DNA of 64,000 nucleotides from Candidatus Omnitrophota bacterium (GTDB lineage Bacteria; Omnitrophota; Gorgyraeia; Gorgyraeales; Gorgyraeaceae), in NCBI GenBank assembly GCA_041653835.1, contig JBAZEP010000006.1, positions 37-64,036 of the forward strand, given 5' to 3'. The position numbers were made by a program, and so were the translations under genes. Under the pieces are notes generated by a model, which had not been told where the DNA came from, did not search any database, and saw only the letters and a program-made list of their open reading frames with translations. Below are positions 4,647 through 34,815 of this stretch, piece after piece (the first letter of the stretch is position 1; every line of letters starts with the position of its first letter).

Positions 4647-5904
4647 AAACGGGCATATGGTAGATCCTGCCAACAAGATAGACGGGATAGCGGATATCCT
4701 TGTGGAAAACGGGAAAATAGCTAAAGTGGGCAAGGATATAAATACCGCGGCTGAGACAGTTATCGACGCCTCCGGTAAAATAGTAATACCCGGCATAGTG
4801 GATATGCATGTGCATTTGAGAGAGCCGGGCAGGGAAGACAAAGAGACTGTCGCGAGCGGCACAAAGGCAGCCGCGAAAGGCGGGGTTACGAGCGTCCTTG
4901 CCATGCCGAACACCCTGCCGAGCCTTGATTCACAGGATATAATCAGGACACTCAGGGATATTATAAATAAAACAGCGAATATAGATGTATTTATATGCGG
5001 GGCGATAACAATAGGAAGAGAAGGCAAGGCATTAACGAACGCGGCAATGTTAAAAAAAGAAGGCATAACCGCGCTCTCCGATGACGGCTCCTCGGTTGAC
5101 AGCGATGAATTGATGTTAAAGGCATTAAAGGCCGCCAAAAAAGAAAATCTCCTTGTTATATGCCACTCCGAAGATAAAGCCCTTGCCGCGAAAGGCGTGG
5201 TCAACATGGGATTCACATCCACAAGGCTGGGCTTGAGAGGCATATCAAAAGAATCCGAATATGAAAGAATAGCCAGGGACATAAAACTGGCGGAAGAGGC
5301 GGGCGCGGCAGCGCACATCGCCCATGTAAGCACGCTCGAGGGTGTGGAGATAATAAGAAAAGCCAGGAAAAAAGGTTTTAAAGTGACCGCGGAAACAGCG
5401 CCGCATTATTTCAGCCTGAGCGACGAAGATCTTCTGGACTATAATACAAATATGAAGGTCAATCCTCCTTTAAGGACAAAAGATGATGTCCTGGCGATAA
5501 AAGAGGGATTGAAAGACGGCACAATAGACATTATCGCGTCCGACCACGCCCCTCATACCGAGAGCGAAAAAGAAATAGAATTCGAACGCGCGGAATTCGG
5601 GAGCATAGGGTTAGAGACAGAACTCAGCGTGGTTATCACGGAACTCGCGGGCACGGGATTATTGACATGGAATGATATCGTAAAAAAGATCTCTCTTAAC
5701 CCGGCAAAGGCGCTGAATATAGACAAAGGCACATTGGGGCAGGGAAAAGACGCTGACATTACTATTATTTCTCCTGACAAAGAATGGGTAGTCAAAAAAA
5801 GCGATCTTGTTTCCAAGTCCAGGAATTCCGCGTTTTTGGGCAGGAAATTAAAAGGCGTAGTCGAATATACTTTGTGCAAAGGAAAGGTCGTGTATAAGGC
5901 ATGA
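4630..5904 (+). CDS. pyrC: Dihydroorotase
   Basis: DMHVHLREPG metal-binding motif, amidohydrolase fold signatures. Confidence 0.85.
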   Translation: MKLLIKNGHMVDPANKIDGIADILVENGKIAKVGKDINTAAETVIDASGKIVIPGIVDMHVHLREPGREDKETVASGTKAAAKGGVTSVLAMPNTLPSLDSQDIIRTLRDIINKTANIDVFICGAITIGREGKALTNAAMLKKEGITALSDDGSSVDSDELMLKALKAAKKENLLVICHSEDKALAAKGVVNMGFTSTRLGLRGISKESEYERIARDIKLAEEAGAAAHIAHVSTLEGVEIIRKARKKGFKVTAETAPHYFSLSDEDLLDYNTNMKVNPPLRTKDDVLAIKEGLKDGTIDIIASDHAPHTESEKEIEFERAEFGSIGLETELSVVITELAGTGLLTWNDIVKKISLNPAKALNIDKGTLGQGKDADITIISPDKEWVVKKSDLVSKSRNSAFLGRKLKGVVEYTLCKGKVVYKA

Positions 5905-7133
5905 AATTCATAGCGGATTTTCATATACACTCTAAATACAGCCGGGCTACAAGCCCTGATATGAACGTAAAGACGCTTTCGGAATACGCGAAACTTAAGG
6001 GCATATCTTTGCTGGGCACGGGAGACTTTACGCACTATCTGTGGCTGGAAGAGCTGAAAAATACGCTTAAGGATTCAGCCAACGGCTTATTCGAATATAA
6101 CGGCGTGAATTTTATGCTTACAGGAGAGATATCGAGCATATATTCCAAGAACGGCAAAGTAAGAAAGATACATAACGTAATCTTTGTCCCGAGCTTTGAT
6201 ATCGCGGATAAGATAAACTCGGTTCTTTCGGGTTACGGCAATATCGCGTCCGACGGACGGCCCATCATAGGCATTGACGCGAAAGACTTGGCGGAGATAT
6301 TATTCGGCATCAGTAAGGATATCTGCTTGGTGCCGGGCCATATCTGGACCCCCTGGTTCTCGCTCTTCGGCTCCAAGTCTGGCTTTGATTCGATAGAAGA
6401 GTGTTTTGAAAAATACGCGAAAGACATCTACGCGCTTGAGACAGGGCTTTCTTCGGACCCGTCAATGAACTGGCAGTGGAGCAAATTAGACAGGTTCAGC
6501 CTGATATCGAATTCCGACTCTCACAGCGCGCGGAAAATAGGCAGGGAAGCCAATGTGTTTAATACCGAGATGAGTTATAACGCGGTATTGGACGCGCTCA
6601 GGAAAAAAGACAAAAAGAAATTTTTATCCACTATCGAATTTTTTCCCGAGGAAGGCAAATACCATTACGACGGCCACCGTCTCTGCAATGTTAGGTTCAG
6701 TCCACAAGAGAGCAAAAAAAATAAAAATATCTGTCCAGCATGCGGAAAACCACTTACAATAGGGGTTATGAACAGGGTAGCGGAACTGGCTGACAGGCCC
6801 GAAGGTTTTGTCCCGGAAAACAGCATCCCCTACAAAAGGATGATACCTTTGGCTGAGATAATCGCCGATGTATTGGACGTGGGGGACGCGTCCAAGGCGG
6901 TTGACACGGAATACCGCGCGATAGTCCCAAGGCTTGGCACTGAACTTGAAGTGCTCATTGAGATAAACGAGGACAAACTTTTAAAGGAACTGCCTGCAAA
7001 GATAGCGAAGGCGATCATAAACGTAAGGAACGGTAATGTTAATATCCTGCCGGGCTTTGACGGCGAATACGGCACAATAGAGATATTGAAAGAAAAAGAC
7101 GCCTCAGGCGAAAAGCAGATGGATTTATTTTGA
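5901..7133 (+). CDS. PHP-domain protein with C-terminal Zn-finger, endonuclease Q-like
   Basis: N-terminal FHIHSKYSRA PHP motif, GHRLC...CPACGKP zinc ribbon, C-terminal ILPGFDGEYG; embedded in pyr operon. Confidence 0.45.
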   Translation: MKFIADFHIHSKYSRATSPDMNVKTLSEYAKLKGISLLGTGDFTHYLWLEELKNTLKDSANGLFEYNGVNFMLTGEISSIYSKNGKVRKIHNVIFVPSFDIADKINSVLSGYGNIASDGRPIIGIDAKDLAEILFGISKDICLVPGHIWTPWFSLFGSKSGFDSIEECFEKYAKDIYALETGLSSDPSMNWQWSKLDRFSLISNSDSHSARKIGREANVFNTEMSYNAVLDALRKKDKKKFLSTIEFFPEEGKYHYDGHRLCNVRFSPQESKKNKNICPACGKPLTIGVMNRVAELADRPEGFVPENSIPYKRMIPLAEIIADVLDVGDASKAVDTEYRAIVPRLGTELEVLIEINEDKLLKELPAKIAKAIINVRNGNVNILPGFDGEYGTIEILKEKDASGEKQMDLF

Positions 7134-26159: not shown

Positions 26160-26203
26160 CAACCCTGATATTTGGTAAATAGTTGCGAGGGGCAGATTTT
26201 ATT

Positions 26204-26488
26204 ATGACTCAGTGGATTTTGTATATATTGAAATGCGCTGATGGTTCTTTGTATACAGGCATAACAACTGATTTAAAACAACGGCTAAAAAGACATAATC
26301 AAGGCAGAGCTTGTAAATATACCAGATCAAGAAAGCCAGTTAAAGTAGTGTATAGTGAGGTTTTTAACAACGAATCTTCGGTAAGAAAACGAGAGATAGA
26401 AATTAAGAAATTATCTCGTATAAATAAGTTAAGATTGATAGGTTGTTTCCCTCGCCGCATAAGTATAGATAAGGGCGGCTCGGGATAA
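26204..26488 (+). CDS. GIY-YIG nuclease family protein (UPF0213/YhbQ-like)
   Basis: WILYILKCADGSLYTGITTDLKQRLKRHNQG GIY-YIG signature. Confidence 0.7.
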   Translation: MTQWILYILKCADGSLYTGITTDLKQRLKRHNQGRACKYTRSRKPVKVVYSEVFNNESSVRKREIEIKKLSRINKLRLIGCFPRRISIDKGGSG

Positions 26489-26512: not shown

Positions 26513-26589
26513 GGGGACGTAGTTCAGTTGGATAGAACGCCAGATTGTCGATCTGGAGGTCGCGGGTTCGACCCCCGTCGTCCCCGCCA
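26513..26589 (+). tRNA. tRNA-Asp (anticodon GTC) with encoded CCA
   Basis: ggggacg/cgtcccc acceptor, anticodon stem ccaga/tctgg loop ttgtcga, T-loop ttcgacc. Confidence 0.9.
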
Positions 26590-26625
26590 GTACTTTTAAC
26601 TAACTTTGTTAGTTGTAATAAATTA

Positions 26626-26753: not shown

Positions 26754-27209
26754 ATGAACTACCAATACCTCCATTACGACTTCTTCACCACCTGCCGTAA
26801 AAGAAAAATCAATAAAGTCCCCATGCTTCTATTAATCTATCTCCGCGGCCTCTATTCTAGATTTGGCAACATATTTACCTGGAAAGACAAAGTAATCCTT
26901 AGTGACTTGGGCATAAACCGCAAAATGCTCCAAAGATCGCGACTCACTCTGCAAGAAAAGGGCGTTATTGACTTTGTAAGCGGCAAAGGCCAGGAACCTA
27001 CTCAATACCTTATATTAGACAGTGTTCTTGCGCCAGAGAGAGTGGACAAAAAGCAAACAGGACTGGACAGAAATAAACAGAGGTATGGACATATTGTCCA
27101 GTCTATATATAAGAGTTATGAAAATAATAAAGATAAAATACCTATCAAAATATTTCAAGGCATGTCAGAGCAAGATAGAGTTTTTTTAAAGAGTAAAGGC
27201 CTTCTTTAA
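26754..27209 (+). CDS. Winged-helix DNA-binding protein, possible replication-initiator/replisome-organiser N-terminal-like
   Basis: LSDLGINRKMLQRSRLTLQEKGVIDF wHTH-like segment; iteron-like repeats upstream. Confidence 0.35.
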   Translation: MNYQYLHYDFFTTCRKRKINKVPMLLLIYLRGLYSRFGNIFTWKDKVILSDLGINRKMLQRSRLTLQEKGVIDFVSGKGQEPTQYLILDSVLAPERVDKKQTGLDRNKQRYGHIVQSIYKSYENNKDKIPIKIFQGMSEQDRVFLKSKGLL

Positions 27210-27211
27210 CT

Positions 27212-27427
27212 ATGGATTTTAGACTCAAGAACCTAATATATCCAAAAACATGCTTCTGGATAAACGCCTTTCTTCTCAAAGAGACCCGGAAAGCTATTTT
27301 AATCATGTTTGATGGCAATAAAGTCTGGTTACCTAAAGCATGGATTTTAAGGATTCGGCGAATTAAAGACAACAATGCCATCAGAATTAAAATATCTGAG
27401 TACTACTGGATTATGAAATTTTTTTAA
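27212..27427 (+). CDS. Small hypothetical protein (71 aa)
   Basis: ORF only; no recognisable motif. Confidence 0.25.
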   Translation: MDFRLKNLIYPKTCFWINAFLLKETRKAILIMFDGNKVWLPKAWILRIRRIKDNNAIRIKISEYYWIMKFF

Positions 27428-27438
27428 TAAAATAATAG

Positions 27439-27467
27439 TTGACAAGAAATAAATTGTTGCATATAAT
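27439..27467 (+). promoter_or_regulatory. Perfect consensus sigma70 promoter TTGACA-17-TATAAT
   Basis: ttgaca 27439-27444, tataat 27462-27467, followed by AAAGGAGG RBS and ATG 27549. Confidence 0.65.
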
Positions 27468-27548
27468 TCAGCTTAGTCGACACATCCTTCCCTAGCAGGG
27501 TGCTAGAGGACTTGAGTGGATGGTCGTACAATTAAAAGGAGGTGCTTT

Positions 27549-28727
27549 ATGCAGGGCCAGTCTGCGCGTCAGCGCGAAGTAGTTCATTTTCCTTTCTACA
27601 ACGTAAGAAACATAAGTTGTCCGGACGACAATAATAATTGTCGCAAGATTTATGTAGGACACGCTCCCGTATCTTCTATTATAGACATACCAACGGATGA
27701 AGATGTTCGTGGTTATCTTATAGGAGCGGAAGGCAAAAAGAAAAAAGTTCCTTCTCAGGTGCATCGAGCCATTCGTTCAACAATATCAGACAATCCAGAA
27801 AATTTTTCTGTTCTAAACGGAGGGGTTGTTATTGTAGCTCGTGAATGCACTATTGATGAAAATGAAAAAACGTTGCTATTAAAAAATCCAAGTATTATTA
27901 ATGGTGCACAAACCCAGGGTATTGTTTCTGATTTTTTCAAAGATAATAGCGAAGAGTTAAAGGCTCAGGAATTTTCTTGTCATGTCAAGTTTGAAATTGT
28001 CGTTACCAATGACGACGACTTGATTGCTGAAATTTCTATTGCTAGAAATTTTCAAAATGACGTTATGACACTATCTATTGTCGGACGCAGAGGATACTTA
28101 GATGAACTTGAGCAAAGTTTTCAAGTTAAATCACCTGGTACGCAATTACAGAAGTCTGAAACTAAATTATCGGAAGATTATATTAAAACAGAAAGGCTTC
28201 TTCAAGTAATCGCGGCTCTTATACCGGAAGAATTATGGGTTAAAAAGGAAGATATTAATAAAGTTTATACTTATAGCATGAAAGCAAAATGTTTAAAAGA
28301 ATTTCAGGAAATTTACTTGAAAGCAAAGAAAAAAGAAGACCCTGAGCATCATAAATACCTAGAACTTTATCAATTTTATCTAGATATTTCCGCAATAGCA
28401 TGGGAGCTATACAGCAAATGGAAAACTCATCAGGGATTTGCAGGTACTGGGCTACATTCAATTAAACGCGAAGGTAGCACTATCAAAGAAGTGCCGGATG
28501 GTATAGTTTTTCCGATCCTAGCTGCTTTATCAGTTTTTGCTAAAAAGACGAATGAAGGATGGACAATTAAACTACCCAATTCATTTAGCGAAAAAGAGCT
28601 GATTAAGTCTGTCAAATCAATTTATCAAGAGATAGCTGATAGAAATCCTAATGTTATGGGTAAGAAAAAAGCCTGCTATTCTTCCTTAATTCAGATAACT
28701 TCAATATATAAAAGATTATCAAAATAG
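27549..28727 (+). CDS. Island cargo protein, possible abortive-infection (AIPR-like)/ParB-like-nuclease-fold protein
   Basis: 392 aa; INGAQTQG motif reminiscent of DGQQR/DGQHR of DUF262/DndB-like proteins; strong promoter and RBS; call by resemblance only. Confidence 0.35.
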   Translation: MQGQSARQREVVHFPFYNVRNISCPDDNNNCRKIYVGHAPVSSIIDIPTDEDVRGYLIGAEGKKKKVPSQVHRAIRSTISDNPENFSVLNGGVVIVARECTIDENEKTLLLKNPSIINGAQTQGIVSDFFKDNSEELKAQEFSCHVKFEIVVTNDDDLIAEISIARNFQNDVMTLSIVGRRGYLDELEQSFQVKSPGTQLQKSETKLSEDYIKTERLLQVIAALIPEELWVKKEDINKVYTYSMKAKCLKEFQEIYLKAKKKEDPEHHKYLELYQFYLDISAIAWELYSKWKTHQGFAGTGLHSIKREGSTIKEVPDGIVFPILAALSVFAKKTNEGWTIKLPNSFSEKELIKSVKSIYQEIADRNPNVMGKKKACYSSLIQITSIYKRLSK

Positions 28728-28742
28728 GAAGAAAAACTACTA

Positions 28743-28769
28743 CCGGGTGCTCTTTTAAAGAGCGCCCGG
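28743..28769. terminator. Bidirectional hairpin between convergent genes (ccgggtgctcttt / aaagagcgcccgg)
   Basis: 13-bp stem with one G-U position. Confidence 0.5.
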
Positions 28770-28808
28770 TACAGTTCATTTTATTAATTATTATATAAAA
28801 ACCAAAGG

Positions 28809-29585
28809 TTAACTTAATTTCGGAGGATAAAAAACGCCCAGTACCATAAAGGTCGAAGGGAAACGGTGCGTATTACCTACATAGAAATAAACATCATTCT
28901 TTGTGGCACATATCAACTCGAGCCATCTTTTACGTATCATCTCAAGTAAGTGTTCTTCAGGTTTATACTTATGCCTCCACTCCCGATATGATTGCCCAAT
29001 CTCCCAATCAATTATCATCAGATCATGACCTGGGCAAGAAGATTCACCTTCACAGAAAAATTTATATCTAAATTCAAATGGTATTAGTTCGATGGCTTGC
29101 TTCTTTTTATCAAAAAATGATAATTGCGCATAGCAAGCCTCTCTTGCTGCTTCATCTTTGGGCTTTGCTTTGCAAGAGACGAAATCAATATTCTTAGGTT
29201 TGAACATTCCGAGAGATTTCTTACTATCCGTATTTTGTTTTACTATTTCACAGAATGACTTTTCAACAGTTGTTAAAACAATGTTTTTTCTTTTTTCCCA
29301 TTTATCAGTAGTATCAAGATAATCTATTTTCTTGATACTCCCGGCATCTGCCCTAAAACTTTCAGGCCGCTTATCATCTTTCGGCCTAATGGTTTTAACT
29401 TCTATTATTGTATATTTCTTGAACTTTTGGCTTTCATCTAAATCTCTGAAAGGTATAGGATAAAGTCTAATCCAACTTTTCGTATCAAGATCAATGCCTG
29501 CAACGCATATGGTTTCTCCATATTTTTTACTCGGATTAGGATATGCCTTGACGGTGACTAATATACGCTTTGTTTGTCCGTTCAT
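28809..29585 (-). CDS. Hypothetical protein (258 aa), no recognisable domain; downstream gene of DUF488 operon
   Basis: Long ORF, 9-nt gap to DUF488 gene, Cys/His cluster CEGESSCPGHD. Confidence 0.55.
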   Translation of the reverse strand: MNGQTKRILVTVKAYPNPSKKYGETICVAGIDLDTKSWIRLYPIPFRDLDESQKFKKYTIIEVKTIRPKDDKRPESFRADAGSIKKIDYLDTTDKWEKRKNIVLTTVEKSFCEIVKQNTDSKKSLGMFKPKNIDFVSCKAKPKDEAAREACYAQLSFFDKKKQAIELIPFEFRYKFFCEGESSCPGHDLMIIDWEIGQSYREWRHKYKPEEHLLEMIRKRWLELICATKNDVYFYVGNTHRFPSTFMVLGVFYPPKLS

Positions 29586-29594
29586 AGAAAACTA

Positions 29595-30056
29595 TTAGAT
29601 ATGCTTTACCTCGAAAGAAATGCCATTTATTCTGCTGACTCTATTAGCAACTGCGCTACGATGACAATTGGTATATTCTTTCTCGAAACATAAAAGGCAG
29701 GATAGCTTTTCATTTACGATCTCGTATAACTCCTCCAACTCTTTACTGCAAGTCTCTAAGTGTTCCCCATACTTCTCAAAAAAATAGTCAAAGTCTTTAT
29801 CTTGATAAACCTTCTTTCGTAAATACGAAGGACTTCCAAGTGCTTTTATATGAATGTAATCAATGTCATTGTCTGCCAGGCGCTGTCGTAAAACGCTTTT
29901 AGAAAAACCTTTTTTACGGCTCAATGGAATTTCTCTGACATCGACTATTCTCTGGATATTATAGGCATTAAGATATTCTATGAATTCTTCTATCTTTCTT
30001 CCTTCATATCCGGTAGTATAAACAGTCTTATATGATGAAATAGATAAGTTTTCCAT
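29595..30056 (-). CDS. DUF488 family protein
   Basis: TVYTTGYEGRKIEEFIEYLNAYNIQRIVDVREIPLSRKKGFSK matches DUF488 N-terminal signature. Confidence 0.55.
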   Translation of the reverse strand: MENLSISSYKTVYTTGYEGRKIEEFIEYLNAYNIQRIVDVREIPLSRKKGFSKSVLRQRLADNDIDYIHIKALGSPSYLRKKVYQDKDFDYFFEKYGEHLETCSKELEELYEIVNEKLSCLLCFEKEYTNCHRSAVANRVSRINGISFEVKHI

Positions 30057-30121
30057 CGCTCTTTCCTGAAATTATACCCCAGTATATAGAAAAAAGCAAA
30101 TCTTTCTGATTAAGAGAAAAT

Positions 30122-30143
30122 TGTCTTGACAATTGTCAAGACA
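30122..30143. promoter_or_regulatory. 22-bp perfect palindrome TGTCTTGACAATTGTCAAGACA (operator) overlapping -35 of promoter TTGACA-17-TATACT for HTH regulator
   Basis: Palindrome read directly; tatact at 30149-30154; regulator ATG at 30163 (near-leaderless). Confidence 0.6.
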
Positions 30144-30162
30144 TCGGGTATACTTATTTTAG

Positions 30163-30362: not shown

Positions 30363-30378
30363 TCTTGACAATTGTCAA
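30363..30378. promoter_or_regulatory. Second copy of operator palindrome CTTGACAATTGTCAAG upstream of excisionase-like gene
   Basis: 16-bp perfect palindrome identical to core of 30122..30143. Confidence 0.6.
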
Positions 30379-30404
30379 GCCAGTTGTTCAGTGAGGAGGT
30401 AAAA

Positions 30405-30590
30405 ATGACTTATCTAACACCAAAAGAAATTAGCGTAAAGACAGGTTTGAAGTACTCAACTGTTCTTGAATGGGCTAAAGACGGCATCATCCCTGCCCGG
30501 ATAATACAGAACAGGAAGAAAAGCAAGTATTTCTTTGTGGAAAAAGAGGTTGAGGCAGTAATAGAAAGACATAAAATAGCGGCGTTCTGA
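30405..30590 (+). CDS. xis: Excisionase-like HTH protein (AlpA/Xis family)
   Basis: MTYLTPKEISVKTGLKYSTVLEWAKDGIIPA; stop overlaps integrase ATG. Confidence 0.5.
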   Translation: MTYLTPKEISVKTGLKYSTVLEWAKDGIIPARIIQNRKKSKYFFVEKEVEAVIERHKIAAF

Positions 30591-31681
30591 TGAAAAAAGG
30601 ATATATATTCAAAAGAGGAAACAGCTGGTTTATTGCGCTGCCGGACCCATCTTATGCCTCAGGTTATAGGATTAAAGCTCCCTCCTACAGCACAAGATCC
30701 GCTGCTCAAAAGGCACTTAGAGAAAGAAAAAACGCCATAGGGTCCAGCCAAGCCGGATGGCTTAGCGAAGGCGACACATATTATGCTGATTACATTAAGG
30801 ATTATCTACAATTTGTTTTAACCAATCATAGCCAGGAGACCCTAAAAACATACAAAGGCGTGTTAAAAGATTTTAACCTCTTCCTTCAAGAGAAATACCC
30901 GCGAATGCAGCGCCTTAAGGAATTTTTTATCAGGCTTTTTGAAGAATACAAAATATGGCTTAAAGAAACAGGTCATAAGGACAATACAGTAAATAACCAT
31001 ATTAAGGTATTAAAGACTATATTTAACCAGGCAATAAGGTGGGAATTATTAAAAAAGAACCCTGTAAAGGATGTGCATAATATAGGCGTGGAAGATGAAA
31101 AGCCGATCGTCAGCCTAGATACGCCGGAAAAATTCGAATTATTCTTTGAAAGATGCAAAATTATAAGACCGGAATACTATAATCATTACTACTGCACGGC
31201 AAAACTTGGCCTTAGATGGAAAGAAATGATAAGTCTTGAATGGGATGATGTTGATTTTGAGAATGCAGTTGTAATTATAAGGAAAAAGAAAGGATTTATC
31301 CCGAAAGGCAGGACTCAAAAAGACCGTAAGCCCAAAACCAGGATAATTTCTGCGCCTCAAGATGTTTTGGATATATTAAAATCAATGGAACATAAACATG
31401 GGAAAATATTTCTTAAAGATGACAGCCCAATAAGTCCTAAGGATAAGAGTTTTAGAAGATGGATTATCGCGATAGTCAGGGGGACGCAATTAGAGGGGAT
31501 GTCGCGAATGCATGAATTAAGGCATACCACAGGCCGTATATTAGGACTAACTCACAGCCTTCATGAGATAAAAGAATTTTTGGGCCATACTGATATCAGG
31601 ACTACCGAAAGATATGTACGGGTAGGAGATGCGGCTAAGAAAAGTATGGCTAAAAGCTTAGAACAGTTTGGGAGGAAATAA
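30590..31681 (+). CDS. int: Tyrosine recombinase / phage-type integrase
   Basis: C-terminal HELRHTTGRIL...GHTDIRTTERYVRV catalytic R-H-R-Y motifs. Confidence 0.85.
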   Translation: MKKGYIFKRGNSWFIALPDPSYASGYRIKAPSYSTRSAAQKALRERKNAIGSSQAGWLSEGDTYYADYIKDYLQFVLTNHSQETLKTYKGVLKDFNLFLQEKYPRMQRLKEFFIRLFEEYKIWLKETGHKDNTVNNHIKVLKTIFNQAIRWELLKKNPVKDVHNIGVEDEKPIVSLDTPEKFELFFERCKIIRPEYYNHYYCTAKLGLRWKEMISLEWDDVDFENAVVIIRKKKGFIPKGRTQKDRKPKTRIISAPQDVLDILKSMEHKHGKIFLKDDSPISPKDKSFRRWIIAIVRGTQLEGMSRMHELRHTTGRILGLTHSLHEIKEFLGHTDIRTTERYVRVGDAAKKSMAKSLEQFGRK

Positions 31682-31790
31682 TATGAATTTATTATACATT
31701 TCACTACACAAGCTATATAATAAAAACTGTAACTTATTAAAAATAATGGCGTTGAGGATTAGGGGGAATTTATCCCCGTCGTCCCCGCCA

Positions 31791-33259
31791 ATATACCTAA
31801 GATACTCAAGTTTTGCATGTTTTAGGTATTTTTTTATGCTTTTTCACTCTTACCGCAGCACACTTTGAAGTCTAAAAATGCCAGATTTTAGGGTAAAAAA
31901 CAATATCGTAATGTCGGTTTGTTCTTTATTTGTCGCCCTATTAATTATAGAAATAGTTATTTTTAATTTTTCAAGTCTTTCCAAGGATGAGAAAAAAGTT
32001 TGGACAACAACGAGCAAAGGCTATGGAAATTGTTATTCATCCGATACAAAAGGCTATTTTCCGATATCTTTAAGAATATCGAAAGATAGAGAAGTCTTTC
32101 GAAAAATTCTGCTTAGTCCCACCATAGAATATCTTGTTGATAAAACCCCTTATTGCATTGTTTATGATGGACAAAAAAGGAGAGAGGGATTTTTTGCTGA
32201 CAGAGAACGTGAGGTGGCTATAGTAGGAGATTCTTTTGTTTTCGGAGAGGGAGTCAAAGAAGAAGATACATTAGGGTATTTACTGGGGTTAAAATTCACC
32301 AAAGCCAATTTCAAAAACTATGGGAGCACGGGGCTAATATCGAGTCACTCTTTACGCTCACCTTAGATATGTTTGAATGGGAAAAAGATATAGATGCAGT
32401 AGTCTATTTTTATAATCTCAACGATATATTAGTATGTCCTGAGATTGAAAGCCGGAGAAAATATATAATAGATTTTCAGAATATTAAATTGGAAAACGTT
32501 AAAAGATCGCGCAACTCCATAACAAAGTTATTATCAAAAAGCAATATCTACCGCTTGATAGAAAACTTGCTTATCCTTAGCAGAGAAACTCATTTGACAG
32601 TTGAAAATTATTTAGATATGTATTTTAATCCTATAAACTCAGATGAATTTGAAAAGACAATAGGATTTTTAGTGTCTATGAGTAATGTGGCAAAAGAAAG
32701 AAACGTTAATTTTTATGTTGTCATTTACCCTCTTTTATATAAAGATATCTATGGAAGATATTCGTTCCTTCAGGTTCACGAGCTCCTAAAAAATATCTGT
32801 GAGAAGCATAACATTCCCTGTATAGATGCTTATCCTGCTTTTGCAAACAGGTACTCTTTAAAGAAATTTACAGTTCATCCGATAGATTATCATCCGAACC
32901 GGATCGCTAATGAGAGAGTGGTTGAGTATTTGTCAAAAAAGGATGATTTCTTACAAGGTTACAAATAATCTTAAGAGTCTCCAAAAGTCCTTAAAATCCC
33001 GATAGTTGGTTACCCTCAGTTTTTATACTTGCGTAGTTATTTTGGATCAAATTTTGAGATTTTGTGTGCCAGATTTGTGCCAAGAATTAATAGGTTGGCA
33101 ATTTATTGAAGATAGAACAGAGAGAGGGTGCGAAAGAACAATATACCCAAGATATATCATATAGCACATTTTTAGCACACTTCAGATCTTGACTTATATA
33201 ACCCATGTATTTATAATGTACTAGGGATATGGGGAATGGTTCCCTGTCCGTCCCCGCCA
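31791..33259 (+). mobile_element. Remnant island 2 (older tandem insertion) ending in degenerate tRNA-Asp 3'-half copy
   Basis: 33225..33259 gggatatggggaatggttccctgtccgtccccgcca resembles tRNA-Asp T-arm+acceptor with last 10 nt identical. Confidence 0.4.
31878..32968 (+). pseudogene. SGNH/GDSL hydrolase disrupted by a frameshift near 32330-32366 (ORFs 31878..32366 and 32369..32968)
   Basis: Block I VAIVGDSFVFGEG in first ORF; block III YFYNLND and block V DYHPN in second ORF; frames differ by 1. Confidence 0.5.
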
Positions 33260-33268
33260 TAAACTTAC

Positions 33269-33302
33269 AAGCCATAATCTGATAAAGATTATGGCTTTTT
33301 TG
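33269..33302 (+). terminator. Intrinsic terminator aagccataatc-loop-gattatggctt + TTTTTT (likely native tRNA-Asp terminator)
   Basis: 11-bp stem, T-run. Confidence 0.6.
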
Positions 33303-33307
33303 TTACC

Positions 33308-33336
33308 TTGAAATAGCCTGTTTTATATGGTATAAT
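33308..33336 (+). promoter_or_regulatory. Promoter TTGAAA-17-TATAAT
   Basis: Sequence read directly. Confidence 0.5.
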
Positions 33337-33405
33337 TATATAAATATCGGATATTTGAACCATATAGCCTTAATAAAAGGACAAGGCTATTTTTTTGGAC
33401 TAATT

Positions 33406-34815
33406 ATGACGAAGATTAAAAAAGTATTAATCCTGATCCTGGTGGCCCTTTTTATTTCTACCAATATCTTGGCAGAAGACAAGGGTTTACCGCCTTCATC
33501 AGAGGCTTTTTTACGTATTCCTCTGGGGACAGCCCAGGTTTCAGACCGTTTCCAAAGGATACTCGAGCTAAGAGCTAAACATACAGATGTCATAAAAGAA
33601 AATATAGGGCGGCTTGAAAAAGAACTCAGTAAATTATACATAGACCTGGAAAAAGTTTTTTCAAAGGCGCTTATGCCGCTCGAAAAAGGCGAAATCGGCA
33701 TAGAAAATATCCGGAAGAGGTTCGGTATCAAAAATACACAAAATATGTATAATACTATAACAAGGATAAGAAAAAGGGAAATTAAACTCTCGATTTTAAA
33801 AAATGACAGGGATTCATTTCTCAATTTAAATTCTCACGGAGAGGGATATCCGGCAGCTGATCTGAGCGTGAATATTGAGCAGTGTTTTTCCAGGGCGGCC
33901 AATAAGATAGGCCTAACCGCATCTCTTTATAGGCATTATGATAACCGGACAGGGAGTATTGCACATAGTTATCTTATCCTGTCCGCAGACAATAAAGCTA
34001 TATCTATAGATTTCGCCGCAGGCCGGTTTATCCCTGAAAACGCGAAACAGGTTGTTGTCGAAGAATTTTCCGCATACCGGGATAAAATACAGCAGGCCAT
34101 AGATAACGCGTACTCCGCAGAACGATACGCGGATGATATGGAAAAAATAGAAAGCGGCAAGGAAGATTTTTTAAATAAAACCGAAGACAATATAAACATC
34201 GCGGCGGAAACCTCGGATGTCTCCGTGGAAATGGCATCTTTTTCCGATTATTCACGCCTGGTAAAGGAGTTGTATGATATCCCGGAGCGGGAACAAGAGG
34301 ACGCCGATTCCACGGTATATCTTAGCGATATGACAAAAGATATAGAGATGGATATCTATAAAAAAGAAACTGAAAAGGTTTTACTGTCTGTTTTTGTCGC
34401 GAGGGGCGTATCCGGTAAAATACTGGGAATAAGGGTGCTAGATAAACCGCACTATGTTCCGGAATTTGGGATAAAAGTGGTGTTCGGGGAAGACTTTGTA
34501 TTAAAAAAATACAGAGAACTGGGGGTAGGCACCAAGCTTAGAATGGCGGCGTTGGCCTATCTGATAGAAAACAAGTACGAAGCTTATGAGGTGGGCGTAA
34601 AAGAAAATAATGCAGCCAGTTATAATAATTTCATAAGTATATGCAATAGCCTCGGGATCCCCAGAAAAAATATTGTACCGGTTACGCATAAATTATATCC
34701 GGAAAGCGTAGGCAGCTTTAAGCATTATCTTCTATTGTTGAAACCCGGAGAAGATCTTTTCGAAAAGCTGCATGATAACGTGATCGCTGCCAGGGGAATA
34801 AAAACCAATATTTAA
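33406..34815 (+). CDS. Secreted protein with C-terminal GNAT-like region
   Basis: Signal peptide MTKIKKVLILILVALFISTNILA; C-terminal ...RELGVGTKLRMAALAYL... resembling acetyltransferase motif A. Confidence 0.4.
   Translation: MTKIKKVLILILVALFISTNILAEDKGLPPSSEAFLRIPLGTAQVSDRFQRILELRAKHTDVIKENIGRLEKELSKLYIDLEKVFSKALMPLEKGEIGIENIRKRFGIKNTQNMYNTITRIRKREIKLSILKNDRDSFLNLNSHGEGYPAADLSVNIEQCFSRAANKIGLTASLYRHYDNRTGSIAHSYLILSADNKAISIDFAAGRFIPENAKQVVVEEFSAYRDKIQQAIDNAYSAERYADDMEKIESGKEDFLNKTEDNINIAAETSDVSVEMASFSDYSRLVKELYDIPEREQEDADSTVYLSDMTKDIEMDIYKKETEKVLLSVFVARGVSGKILGIRVLDKPHYVPEFGIKVVFGEDFVLKKYRELGVGTKLRMAALAYLIENKYEAYEVGVKENNAASYNNFISICNSLGIPRKNIVPVTHKLYPESVGSFKHYLLLLKPGEDLFEKLHDNVIAARGIKTNI

What the first reader, a model, noticed from the sequence alone, without database searches (positions are those of the whole stretch)
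28809..30056. Convergent two-gene operon DUF488 + 258-aa unknown inside the island: candidate uncharacterised (defence?) module
Two tightly linked minus-strand genes (9-nt gap) carried as cargo of the integrative element. The first has the DUF488 N-terminal signature (TxGYEG...VDVR). The second has no recognisable domain but a CxGESSCPGHD Cys/His cluster. They are divergently placed from the island repressor/operator and convergent with the AIPR-like gene across a bidirectional hairpin. Small operons of unknown function on integrase-bounded tRNA islands are typical hosts of anti-phage systems.
Basis: partly seen in the sequence, partly recalled or inferred. Interest (0 to 1): 0.7.

Follow-up and report, generated by a model that had tools for sequence, protein, structure and literature searches.

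The report
DUF488 plus dual-OB candidate defence pair
The two genes are real and form a tightly conserved pair (a DUF488 enzyme and a tandem OB-fold nucleic-acid binder) that moves between genomes and is already listed, untested, as phage-defence candidate PDC-M19, so this is a new copy of a catalogued but uncharacterised module.

Summary
Two minus-strand genes, 9 nt apart, sit on a 5.2-kb island integrated at tRNA-Asp. The island has 20-nt att repeats, an integrase, an excisionase-like gene and a repressor with operators.

- **Gene 1** is a DUF488 protein (Pfam 9e-30). Its model resembles cysteine phosphatases.
- **Gene 2** passes no Pfam threshold. Its model is a basic tandem-OB protein with a conserved C27/C178/C184/H187 set.
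- **PADLOC match:** both proteins match PDC-M19A and PDC-M19B (9e-41, 4e-67). PDC-M19 is one of 145 untested "phage defence candidates" from Payne et al. 2024.
- **Linkage:** DUF488 lies next to the OB gene in 114 of 117 assessable loci. These span more than 15 phyla, plasmids and phages, in two gene orders, with no third conserved gene.
- **Contexts of close homologues:** integrases, transposases, toxin-antitoxin pairs, a type I RM system and SIR2/HEPN genes.
- **Phage copies:** these sit beside DNA methylases and terminase genes, or directly after the immunity repressor in Gordonia phages.

The most likely reading is a mobile conflict module in which the OB protein binds nucleic acid and the DUF488 enzyme acts on it. 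Defence is plausible but unproven, and the mechanism is inferred. This is a new member of a known, uncharacterised kind.

The parts
29595..30056 (-). Gene A: DUF488 protein, 153 aa (coordinates include the stop codon). Predicted enzyme subunit.
28809..29585 (-). Gene B: 258-aa basic tandem-OB protein (PDC-M19B, DuOB-like). Predicted nucleic-acid-binding subunit with a conserved Cys3-His set.
29586..29594 (-). 9-nt spacer between the stop of A and the start of B. Compatible with co-transcription and coupled translation.
   Evidence: Read from the sequence. Co-directional homologous pairs have estimated gaps of about -15 to 25 nt.
30071..30099 (-). Putative promoter of the pair: weak -35 TTGCTT (30099-30094), 17-nt spacer, perfect -10 TATAAT (30076-30071), 14 nt upstream of the ATG.
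   Evidence: Read from the sequence. The consensus scan did not list it, because the -35 matches only 3 of 6 positions. This is an inference.
30122..30143 (.). Operator-like palindrome (TCTTGACAATTGTCAAGA core) between the pair and the divergent HTH_3 gene. It overlaps the -35 of the HTH_3 promoter. A second copy lies at 30363-30382.
   Evidence: Repeat families D7, I2 and I20. Promoter-like site 30126-30154 scoring 11/12. Sequence shown.
28741..28771 (.). GC-rich hairpin (14-bp stem) between the converging ends of gene B and the AIPR gene. Likely a bidirectional terminator.
   Evidence: Terminator-like site. T-runs on both strands.
26573..26592 (+). attL: the 3' end of tRNA-Asp. This is the left boundary of the 5.2-kb island that carries the pair.
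   Evidence: tRNA-Asp at 26513-26589. Direct repeat D6, 19/20 identity.
31774..31793 (+). attR: repeat of the tRNA-Asp 3' end, 93 nt after the integrase gene. This is the right boundary of the island.
   Evidence: Integrase 30590..31681: Pfam Phage_integrase 9e-16, phrog_1 6e-39.
27516..28727 (+). Context only: AIPR-family (Abi-like) gene, a second and independent defence-type cargo gene of the island.
   Evidence: Pfam AIPR 1.7e-24. PADLOC AbiU 1.5e-16, partial. phrog_1841 'Abi alpha-like' 2.6e-21. It does not recur next to the pair in other loci.

Best explanation
The region encodes a self-contained, horizontally mobile two-protein module that acts on nucleic acids. It belongs to the family PADLOC calls PDC-M19. 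Here it rides as cargo on a small tRNA-Asp integrative island, next to an Abi-type (AIPR) gene.

**Proposed working**
1. Gene B makes a basic protein of two OB-fold barrels. A conserved Cys3-His set (C27, C178, C184, H187), probably binding zinc, holds the barrels together.
2. B binds single-stranded or end-exposed DNA, or RNA, of an invading element.
3. Gene A makes a DUF488 enzyme of the rhodanese/Cys-phosphatase fold class. Its conserved cysteine-rich loop (C123...C131-H-R133) lies where those enzymes carry their active site.
4. B brings A to the bound nucleic acid. A then removes or transfers a phosphate-linked group at a terminus or sugar, which blocks replication, ligation or packaging of the invader.

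**Shown**
- The genes exist and belong to these families.
- Their linkage is extremely conserved.
- The module is mobile.
- The predicted folds are as stated.
- Homologues often lie in defence or mobile-element contexts.

**Inferred**
- The two proteins form a complex.
- B binds nucleic acid and zinc.
- A has phosphatase or transferase chemistry.
- The biological role is anti-phage defence.
For: **Family membership**
- PDC-M19A 9.1e-41 and PDC-M19B 4.2e-67, encoded by adjacent genes.
- PDC-M19 is cassette CAS_00089, one of 145 untested candidates found embedded in BREX/DISARM/type I RM loci.

**Linkage**
- DUF488 is adjacent to B in 74 of 80 genome loci. Three of the six exceptions are contig edges.
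- It is adjacent in 40 of 40 viral contigs, and in the Pseudomonas, Streptomyces and Rhizobium plasmids examined and in Gordonia phages.
- Two gene orders occur: A then B co-directional, or B and A convergent with abutting ends. No third gene recurs.

**Spread**
- More than 15 bacterial phyla plus archaea, which points to horizontal transfer.

**Contexts of close homologues (60-79% identity to B)**
- integrase-A-B-HsdM-HsdS-HsdR.
- A-B-SIR2/TPR, with a HEPN gene further downstream and RelB/YafQ upstream.
- HigB/HTH pair.
- IS200 and IS110 transposases.
- MTase-ParB-x-A-B-integrase.

**Window context**
- An att-bounded island with an integrase, an excisionase-like gene, a repressor and an AIPR gene.

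**Phage position**
- In Gordonia phage Nymphadora, B (gp43) directly follows the immunity repressor, and DUF488 (gp42) converges on it.
- This is the slot where CarolAnn genes 43/44 were shown to be prophage defence genes (PMC6426606).

**Folds**
- B is a tandem OB fold like RPA70, LEF-3, TEBP and HIN-200. It has pI 9.2 and a conserved Cys3-His set.
- A's invariant C123, C131 and R133 lie on the loop between strand 4 and the following helix.
Against: - No experiment on any member is in the searchable literature.
- Neighbourhoods of the first 26 genome loci mix housekeeping genes with mobile and defence genes. No enrichment statistic could be computed.
- In at least 16 of 40 viral contigs the pair lies between ParB/N6-N4 methylase genes and the terminase. 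That is a lytic-cycle region more typical of functions that serve the phage.
- B has many invariant Arg/Asp/Glu residues, so B rather than A could be the catalytic partner.
- A-B complex formation and zinc binding could not be modelled, because no coordinates or multimer tool were available.
Confidence: 0.5

Rival explanations
1. The pair serves the mobile element rather than the host. It would be a DNA-processing, establishment or counter-defence module. The tandem-OB protein would coat or recognise the element's own incoming or replicating DNA. DUF488 would process its ends or modification intermediates, helping entry, replication, packaging or escape from restriction.
For: - In at least 16 of 40 viral contigs the order is DUF6362, ParB_N/N6_N4 methylase, DUF488, B, terminase, portal.
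- A D12 methylase and a ParB_N gene precede the pair in L126.
- On Rhizobium plasmid pRL8 the pair lies near a toprim/DUF3991 primase-like gene and a large DEAD-box helicase gene.
- On Sulfolobus conjugative plasmids B lies next to the integrase.
- From memory of the abstract of Burroughs and Aravind 2023, some enzymes of the clade containing DUF488 are predicted to carry out DNA-end processing in nucleic-acid-modifying systems.
Against: - The window island and most cellular loci have no methylase, primase or packaging genes next to the pair.
- The pair occurs as an isolated islet among housekeeping genes or beside RM, SIR2 and toxin-antitoxin genes.
- PADLOC found it embedded inside host defence operons.
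- Phages also carry defence genes in such variable slots.
Confidence: 0.25
2. The pair is the restriction-like half of a methylation-linked system. B would recognise DNA lacking, or carrying, a particular methylation mark, DUF488 would inactivate that DNA, and a methylase encoded nearby or elsewhere would protect self DNA.
For: - Three unrelated methylase families recur next to the pair: N6_N4 in 11 of the 144 neighbour proteins scanned, C-5 in 2, and D12 in L126.
- The pair is adjacent to a type I RM system in L133.
Against: - There is no methylase on the window island.
- No methylase family recurs in the 80 genome loci.
- The methylase next to phage copies is the common ParB-fused orphan type that occupies this genome region in many phages regardless of neighbours. 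This last point rests on established knowledge and was not tested here.
Confidence: 0.1
3. The pair is a housekeeping or stress-related repair module for DNA or RNA ends that merely happens to lie on an island here.
For: - DUF488 is a very widespread family.
- OB folds and phosphatase-like enzymes are common in repair.
- Several loci are flanked by housekeeping genes.
Against: - Distribution is sparse and patchy. The pattern scan of 185,579 species genomes found 89 relatives, which is a lower bound. These span many phyla with 60% or higher identity, which argues for horizontal transfer.
- The pair occurs on plasmids, in phages and on integrative islands.
- It is never linked to known repair genes.
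Confidence: 0.08
4. The pair is an addiction (toxin-antitoxin-like) module that stabilises the island. One protein would be toxic and the other would neutralise it.
For: - It is a tight two-gene cassette on mobile elements.
- The SEA-PHAGES annotators guessed 'HipA toxin' for the DUF488 gene of Nymphadora.
Against: - That annotation is not supported: the protein is DUF488, Pfam 1.2e-29, with no HipA match.
- Neither protein matches any known toxin or antitoxin family.
- Sizes of 153 and 258 aa, and the convergent gene order seen in many lineages, are atypical for type II toxin-antitoxin operons.
Confidence: 0.07

Closest known systems
PADLOC phage defence candidate PDC-M19 (Payne et al., bioRxiv 2024.01.29.577857; cassette CAS_00089, FAM_02799>>FAM_02993)
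   Same: Both proteins match its HMMs strongly (A 9.1e-41, B 4.2e-67) and the genes are adjacent. It is the same two-gene composition with no other component.
   Different: The window's DUF488 aligns only to the C-terminal half of the PDC-M19A profiles (positions 146-294 of 294, and 87-234 of 234). It therefore lacks an N-terminal extension present in the RefSeq members behind those profiles. The host is an uncultured Omnitrophota bacterium. PDC-M19 itself is untested.
[quoted passage not shown]
   Same: A passes the DUF488-N3a ('active subclade') threshold, 32.0 against 27 bits. Its model matches Cys-phosphatases and diphthine-synthase-like methylases, the fold class of that superfamily. B is built of two OB folds as the DuOB name implies. 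DuOB is the only Pfam family hit by several B relatives, 9 of 49, with matches in collinear positions.
   Different: B scores below the DuOB gathering cut-off (18.5 against 27 bits), so it is at best a distant sister family. I could not read the paper to see whether this exact pairing is described there.
Tandem-OB DNA binders: RPA70 DBD-A/B, baculovirus LEF-3, Oxytricha TEBP, and HIN-200 domains of AIM2/IFI16
   Same: The predicted architecture is two consecutive OB barrels and the protein is basic. Foldseek alignments span the whole protein, with probability up to 0.99.
   Different: Sequence identity is only 6-11% and TM-scores are 0.22-0.40, because the barrel orientations differ. No sequence homology is detectable. 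B also has its own conserved Cys3-His set and many invariant Arg/Asp/Glu residues.
Cysteine-dependent phosphatases of the PTP/DSP fold (for example Tk-PTP 5z5b, NMA1982 2f46, DUF442 3gxg)
   Different: There is no CX5R signature. The loop is longer (C123-x7-C131-H-R133) and carries extra invariant residues (E125, H152). Activity is unknown.
Prophage defence genes downstream of the immunity repressor in Gordonia phages (CarolAnn gp43/gp44; PMC6426606)
   Same: In Nymphadora-type phages the B gene directly follows the repressor gene, between the repressor and the integrase. CarolAnn 43/44, which occupy the equivalent position after that phage's repressor gene 45, confer defence.
   Different: The proteins are unrelated: CarolAnn gp43 is proposed to be a membrane ion channel. 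This is an analogy of position only. No defence phenotype is reported for Nymphadora gp42/43.

Membership tests
PADLOC PDC-M19 | A protein matching a PDC-M19A HMM | tested here: met
   PDLC04505 9.1e-41 and PDLC04504 2.3e-29. The match covers only the C-terminal DUF488 part of each profile.
PADLOC PDC-M19 | A protein matching a PDC-M19B HMM | tested here: met
   PDLC04508 4.2e-67 over residues 5-256. The protein also matches PDLC04507 and PDLC04506.
PADLOC PDC-M19 | The two genes are adjacent in one cassette | tested here: met
   9-nt gap, same strand. Adjacency is conserved in 114 of 117 assessable loci.
PADLOC PDC-M19 | Anti-phage activity | not testable with these tools
   The source paper calls the 145 PDC systems untested. 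No paper text mentions PDC-M19.
Pfam DUF488 (PF04343) / DUF488-N3a (PF22751) | Score above the curated gathering cut-off | tested here: met
   DUF488 104.3 bits against 22.2. DUF488-N3a 32.0 bits against 27, covering residues 68-138 only.
Pfam DuOB (PF22557) | Score above the curated gathering cut-off (27 bits) | tested here: not met
   18.5 bits, E 0.0022, a 20-residue stretch. 9 of 49 diverged relatives hit at E<=0.1. Nymphadora gp43 matches profile positions 12-146 at E 0.002.
Pfam DuOB (PF22557) | Two OB-fold domains in one polypeptide | tested here: met
Rhodanese / Cys-phosphatase superfamily | Rossmann-like fold shared with PTP/DSP phosphatases and diphthine-synthase-like methylases | tested here: met
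Rhodanese / Cys-phosphatase superfamily | Catalytic Cys-X5-Arg loop between the central strand and a helix | tested here: inconclusive
   Invariant C123, C131 and R133, with H132 nearly invariant, lie on the loop between strand 119-123 and helix 133-141. The spacing is not CX5R, and residue-level superposition was not available.
Type II toxin-antitoxin | Match of either protein to a known toxin or antitoxin family | tested here: not met
   No such match in Pfam, PADLOC or NCBIfam. The phage 'HipA toxin' label is wrong.
Restriction-modification | A cognate DNA methyltransferase encoded with the effector genes | tested here: not met
   No methylase on the island. None recurs in the genome loci. 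Methylases do recur next to phage-borne copies.

The most novel reading that the evidence does not exclude
The pair is a working anti-phage system with an effector chemistry not yet seen in prokaryotic immunity. An RPA/HIN-200-like tandem-OB sensor would bind exposed phage DNA or RNA and direct a cysteine-dependent DUF488 phosphatase or transferase to alter nucleic-acid termini or sugar-phosphates. The same module would have been taken up by phages, next to their methylases and terminases, for the opposite side of the conflict.
Probability: 0.3. Interest if true: 0.75.

Novelty: new member of a known kind. Interest (0 to 1): 0.4.

Why it matters
DUF488 is one of the large, long-standing 'unknown function' families, and no biochemical activity is reported for it in the literature I could search. 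The DUF488 and tandem-OB pair is compact (about 1.25 kb) and self-contained. It is found in bacteria, archaea, plasmids and phages.

If it is a defence system, it would add a new effector type, a Cys-phosphatase-fold enzyme guided by an OB-fold DNA binder. It would also give the first functional handle on DUF488.

For this particular window the value is modest. It adds an Omnitrophota example on a cleanly bounded 5.2-kb integrative island. The surveys run here also add linkage statistics, evidence for two gene orders, and a phage-side association with methylases and terminases, all of which can guide experiments.

Tried and rejected
**Searches that found nothing**
- Sequence searches of the PDB gave no hit for B, with either the single sequence or the profile.
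- For A the only PDB hit was weak: the DnaI zinc-binding N-domain, E 0.04 with the sequence and 8e-4 with the profile. It covers the helical insert and CxxC. I treated it as probably chance, because the AF2 model puts C120 and C123 in one strand on opposite faces.
- NCBIfam gave no hit for either protein.
- Literature searches for 'DuOB' and 'dual OB' returned only irrelevant papers.
- A search for 'PDC-M19' found zero papers.
- The key paper, Burroughs and Aravind 2023, is not held under its DOI or PMC id.
- The DefensePredictor preprint has no supplements held.

- The AFDB50 fold library was not available.

**Ideas rejected**
- A third conserved partner gene. Clustering 913 neighbour ORFs gave none.
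- AIPR as part of the same system. It does not recur next to the pair.
- An HTH-DUF488 fusion as the Gordonia phage immunity repressor. Nymphadora gp44 has only a weak HTH match, and DUF488 is the separate gp42.
- The 'HipA toxin' annotation of gp42.
It was repeated with A1.
Full report
**1. Observation**

The window is a contig of an uncultured Candidatus Omnitrophota bacterium. The database holds a 100% identical protein from a 64,630-bp contig.

Two minus-strand ORFs occupy the stated coordinates:
- A is 29595..30056, 153 aa.
- B is 28809..29585, 258 aa.
- Exactly 9 nt separate them.

Both are genuine genes.
- A matches Pfam DUF488 at 8.9e-30.
- B has at least 894 relatives with E<=0.001, and the best 120 are 60-85% identical across phyla.
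- A profile of B finds 2,559 representative clusters in a 1.84-billion-protein library, nearly all stand-alone proteins of about 260 aa.

**2. The island**

tRNA-Asp lies at 26513-26589. Its last 17 nt plus three more (26573-26592) are repeated 19/20 at 31774-31793, 93 nt after a tyrosine integrase gene at 30590..31681.

Between these att sites the GC content is about 0.35, against 0.45-0.5 upstream.

The 5.2-kb element carries, in order:
- two ORFs with no family match (151 and 71 aa);
- an AIPR/Abi-type gene at 27516..28727 (Pfam 1.7e-24);
- the A-B pair;
- an HTH_3 repressor-like gene;
- an HTH_17 excisionase-like gene;
- the integrase.

An 18-bp palindrome, TCTTGACAATTGTCAAGA, flanks the HTH_3 gene on both sides at 30122-30143 and 30363-30382. 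A 14-bp-stem hairpin at 28741-28771 separates the converging ends of B and the AIPR gene.

Upstream of A I read a perfect -10 (TATAAT, 30076-30071) with a weak -35. The consensus scan did not list it, so this promoter is an inference.

**3. What the proteins are**

*Protein A*
- It is a DUF488 protein. It also passes the threshold of Pfam's 'active DUF488-N3 subclade' model, 32.0 against 27 bits.
- Its AlphaFold model (pLDDT 84.8) is a small alpha/beta domain.
- This is the composition I recall from the abstract of Burroughs and Aravind 2023 for the rhodanese-phosphatase superfamily. That paper defines a RapZ-C/DUF488/DUF4326 clade and predicts DNA-end processing roles in virus-host conflicts. 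It is not held here, so this point rests on memory.
- In B-linked homologues the invariant residues include C120, C123, E125, C131 and R133, with H132 nearly invariant. C123, C131 and R133 lie on the loop between strand 119-123 and helix 133-141. That is where Cys-phosphatases carry their CX5R loop, but the spacing here differs.

*Protein B*
- It passes no Pfam or NCBIfam threshold and has no sequence relative in the PDB.
- It matches PADLOC PDC-M19B (4.2e-67) and phrog_25907 (1.9e-58) over its full length.
- Its model (pLDDT 85.6, pTM 0.84) consists of two beta-barrels.
- Foldseek aligns the whole chain to tandem-OB DNA binders: RPA70, baculovirus LEF-3, telomere end-binding protein, CST and HIN-200 domains.
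- The only Pfam family touched is DuOB ('dual OB-containing domain'). It is below threshold (18.5 bits), but 9 of 49 diverged relatives hit it, and the phage and archaeal-plasmid homologues match at collinear positions.
- B is basic, with pI 9.2 and a family median of 8.8-9.3.
- Across 49 relatives at 30-50% identity, C27 (49/49), C178 (45), C184 (42) and H187 (45) are conserved. This is a plausible zinc site. R40, R73, R99 and E195 are invariant.

**4. Linkage**

*Genome loci.* I fetched 80 loci from one-genome-per-species contigs.
- A DUF488 gene lies next to B in 74 of them.
- Three of the six exceptions have B at the contig edge. Two have a truncated B. One, L072, has a full-length B without a detectable partner.

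*Gene order.*
- In most lineages the order is A then B on one strand, with estimated gaps of about -15 to 25 nt.
- In Actinomycetota, Chloroflexota, proteobacterial plasmids and Gordonia phages the genes converge with abutting or overlapping 3' ends.

*Other collections.*
- In 40 of 40 IMG/VR viral contigs with a B relative, DUF488 is adjacent.
- Clustering 913 neighbour ORFs found no third recurrent gene.

Linkage that survives a change of gene order, across more than 15 phyla and both prokaryotic domains, is strong evidence that the two proteins work together.

**5. Is it defence?**

PADLOC lists the pair as PDC-M19. According to Payne et al. (bioRxiv 2024.01.29.577857), PDC-M19 is one of 145 untested 'phage defence candidates'. 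These were picked because they occur embedded in BREX, DISARM or type I RM loci. The cassette is CAS_00089, FAM_02799>>FAM_02993. No paper in the library mentions PDC-M19 in its text.

My own sample of annotated contexts for close homologues (60-79% identity to B):
- integrase-A-B-HsdM-HsdS-HsdR, followed by a second integrase;
- RelB/YafQ upstream, then A-B-SIR2/TPR, with HEPN_LA2681 further downstream;
- a HigB/HTH_3 pair nearby;
- IS200 and IS110 transposases;
- an HNH/AP2 gene;
- D12 methylase, ParB_N, one gene, A, B, integrase.

A bulk scan of 148 neighbours from 26 genome loci gave a mixture:
- mobile-element genes;
- some defence genes (type I and type III RM, DruF, PIN, a Schlafen-like helicase);
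- many housekeeping genes.

This is what one expects of a small cassette that inserts at many places. I could not compute a formal enrichment.

In Gordonia temperate phages of the Nymphadora type, B (gp43) directly follows the immunity repressor gene. DUF488 (gp42, mis-annotated 'HipA toxin') converges on it, between the repressor and the integrase. In the related system of phage CarolAnn, the genes in that slot were shown to be prophage-expressed defence genes (PMC6426606). This is an argument from position only.

**6. A complication**

In at least 16 of the 40 viral contigs the pair lies in a conserved lytic-region synteny: AAA_25 helicase, one gene, DUF6362, one or two ParB_N/N6_N4 methylase genes, DUF488, B, large terminase, portal. 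C-5 and D12 methylases also occur next to the pair.

This could mean one of three things:
- the phage copies serve the phage, for example in DNA modification, end processing or counter-defence;
- there is a restriction-like dependence on methylation;
- the pair simply lands in the accessory-gene hotspot where orphan methylases usually sit.

The window island has no methylase, so the module must be able to work without one there.

**7. Mechanism**

The best-supported model is a two-part nucleic-acid-targeting module.
- B is a zinc-stabilised tandem-OB protein that binds single-stranded or end-exposed nucleic acid.
- A is a Cys-dependent enzyme of the phosphatase/rhodanese fold class that acts on phosphate-linked groups of the bound substrate.
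- The outcome would be a block to an invader's replication, ligation or packaging.

The genes, families, folds, linkage and mobility are shown. Complex formation, substrate, chemistry and biological role are inferred.

I put about 0.95 on 'member of the PDC-M19 family', about 0.5 on a host-protective conflict role, and no more than about 0.2 on the specific chemistry.

**8. Rivals**

| Rival | Confidence |
|---|---|
| Role serving the mobile element | 0.25 |
| Methylation-linked restriction-like system | 0.10 |
| Housekeeping repair | 0.08 |
| Addiction module | 0.07 |

- Housekeeping repair is disfavoured by the patchy, mobile distribution.
- The addiction module is disfavoured because neither protein matches a toxin or antitoxin family and the architecture is atypical.

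**9. Novelty and score**

The instance is a new member of a family that is already catalogued: PADLOC PDC-M19, a PHROG family for each protein (phrog_14939 and phrog_25907), and Pfam DUF488-N3a with the distantly related DuOB. The family remains experimentally uncharacterised.

A specialist would not be surprised to find it on a tRNA island. The open question, what DUF488 does, is real, and this compact pair makes it testable.

- Interest: 0.4.
- The most novel reading not excluded, a new immune effector chemistry used by both sides of the conflict, has probability about 0.3 and would merit about 0.75.

Noticed in passing
IMG/VR loci L090, L092, L093, L096, L098-L102, L104, L108, L111, L116, L119, L120 (pair at about 5400-6750 in most): Phage-borne DUF488/B pairs sit in a recurring synteny: AAA_25 helicase, one gene, DUF6362, ParB_N/N6_N4 DNA methylase (often duplicated), DUF488, B, large terminase, portal. 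DUF6362 and a 209-aa protein with no family match recur with it.
   Followed up: partly
L081 (Gordonia phage Nymphadora NC_031061.1) 5813-6265, gene 42: The gene annotated 'HipA toxin, toxin-antitoxin system?' is a DUF488 protein (Pfam 1.2e-29) with no HipA match. Gene 43, annotated hypothetical, is the tandem-OB partner, and its start overlaps the stop of immunity repressor gene 44.
   Followed up: yes
window 30122-30143 and 30363-30382: Two copies of an 18-bp perfect palindrome (TCTTGACAATTGTCAAGA) bracket the 59-aa HTH_3 gene. Each contains TTGACA boxes facing both ways. They are likely operators that control the repressor, the excisionase/integrase genes and perhaps the DUF488 operon.
   Followed up: partly
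window 30372-30590: The listed TTG start of the excisionase-like HTH_17 ORF is probably wrong. An ATG at 30405 preceded by GGAGG (30395-30399) gives MTYLTPKE... and leaves the second operator upstream of the gene.
   Followed up: no
window 26754-27209 and 27212-27427: Two island ORFs (151 and 71 aa) just inside attL have no match in Pfam, PADLOC or NCBIfam. In PHROGs the 151-aa ORF has none and the 71-aa ORF only a marginal hit (phrog_8389, E 0.0073). A perfect sigma-70-type promoter match (TTGACA, 17 nt, TATAAT) lies at 27439-27467, ahead of the AIPR gene.
   Followed up: no
window 26183-26488: A 101-aa ORF between tRNA-Val and tRNA-Asp looks like a GIY-YIG (UPF0213-type) nuclease by its motif (YILKC..GSLYTGIT...R...H). 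A similar small gene lies next to the pair in L002 (7142-7465).
   Followed up: no
window 31800-33500: Low GC (0.32-0.36) continues for about 1.7 kb beyond attR, across ORFs 31878..32366 and 32369..32968. This may be a remnant of an earlier insertion at the same tRNA site.
   Followed up: no
L082 (Sulfolobus islandicus plasmid pSOG2) 3995-5355; also pARN-type plasmids H14, H15: Archaeal conjugative plasmids carry a B homologue next to their integrase. The following 168-aa gene shows no DUF488 signal, so B may have a different partner there.
   Followed up: partly
window gene A, residues 73-123: A profile of B-linked DUF488 proteins gives a borderline hit (E 8e-4) to the zinc-binding N-terminal domain of the helicase loader DnaI (PDB 2k7r). 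It covers the helical insert and the CxxC. This is unexplained and probably chance.
   Followed up: no
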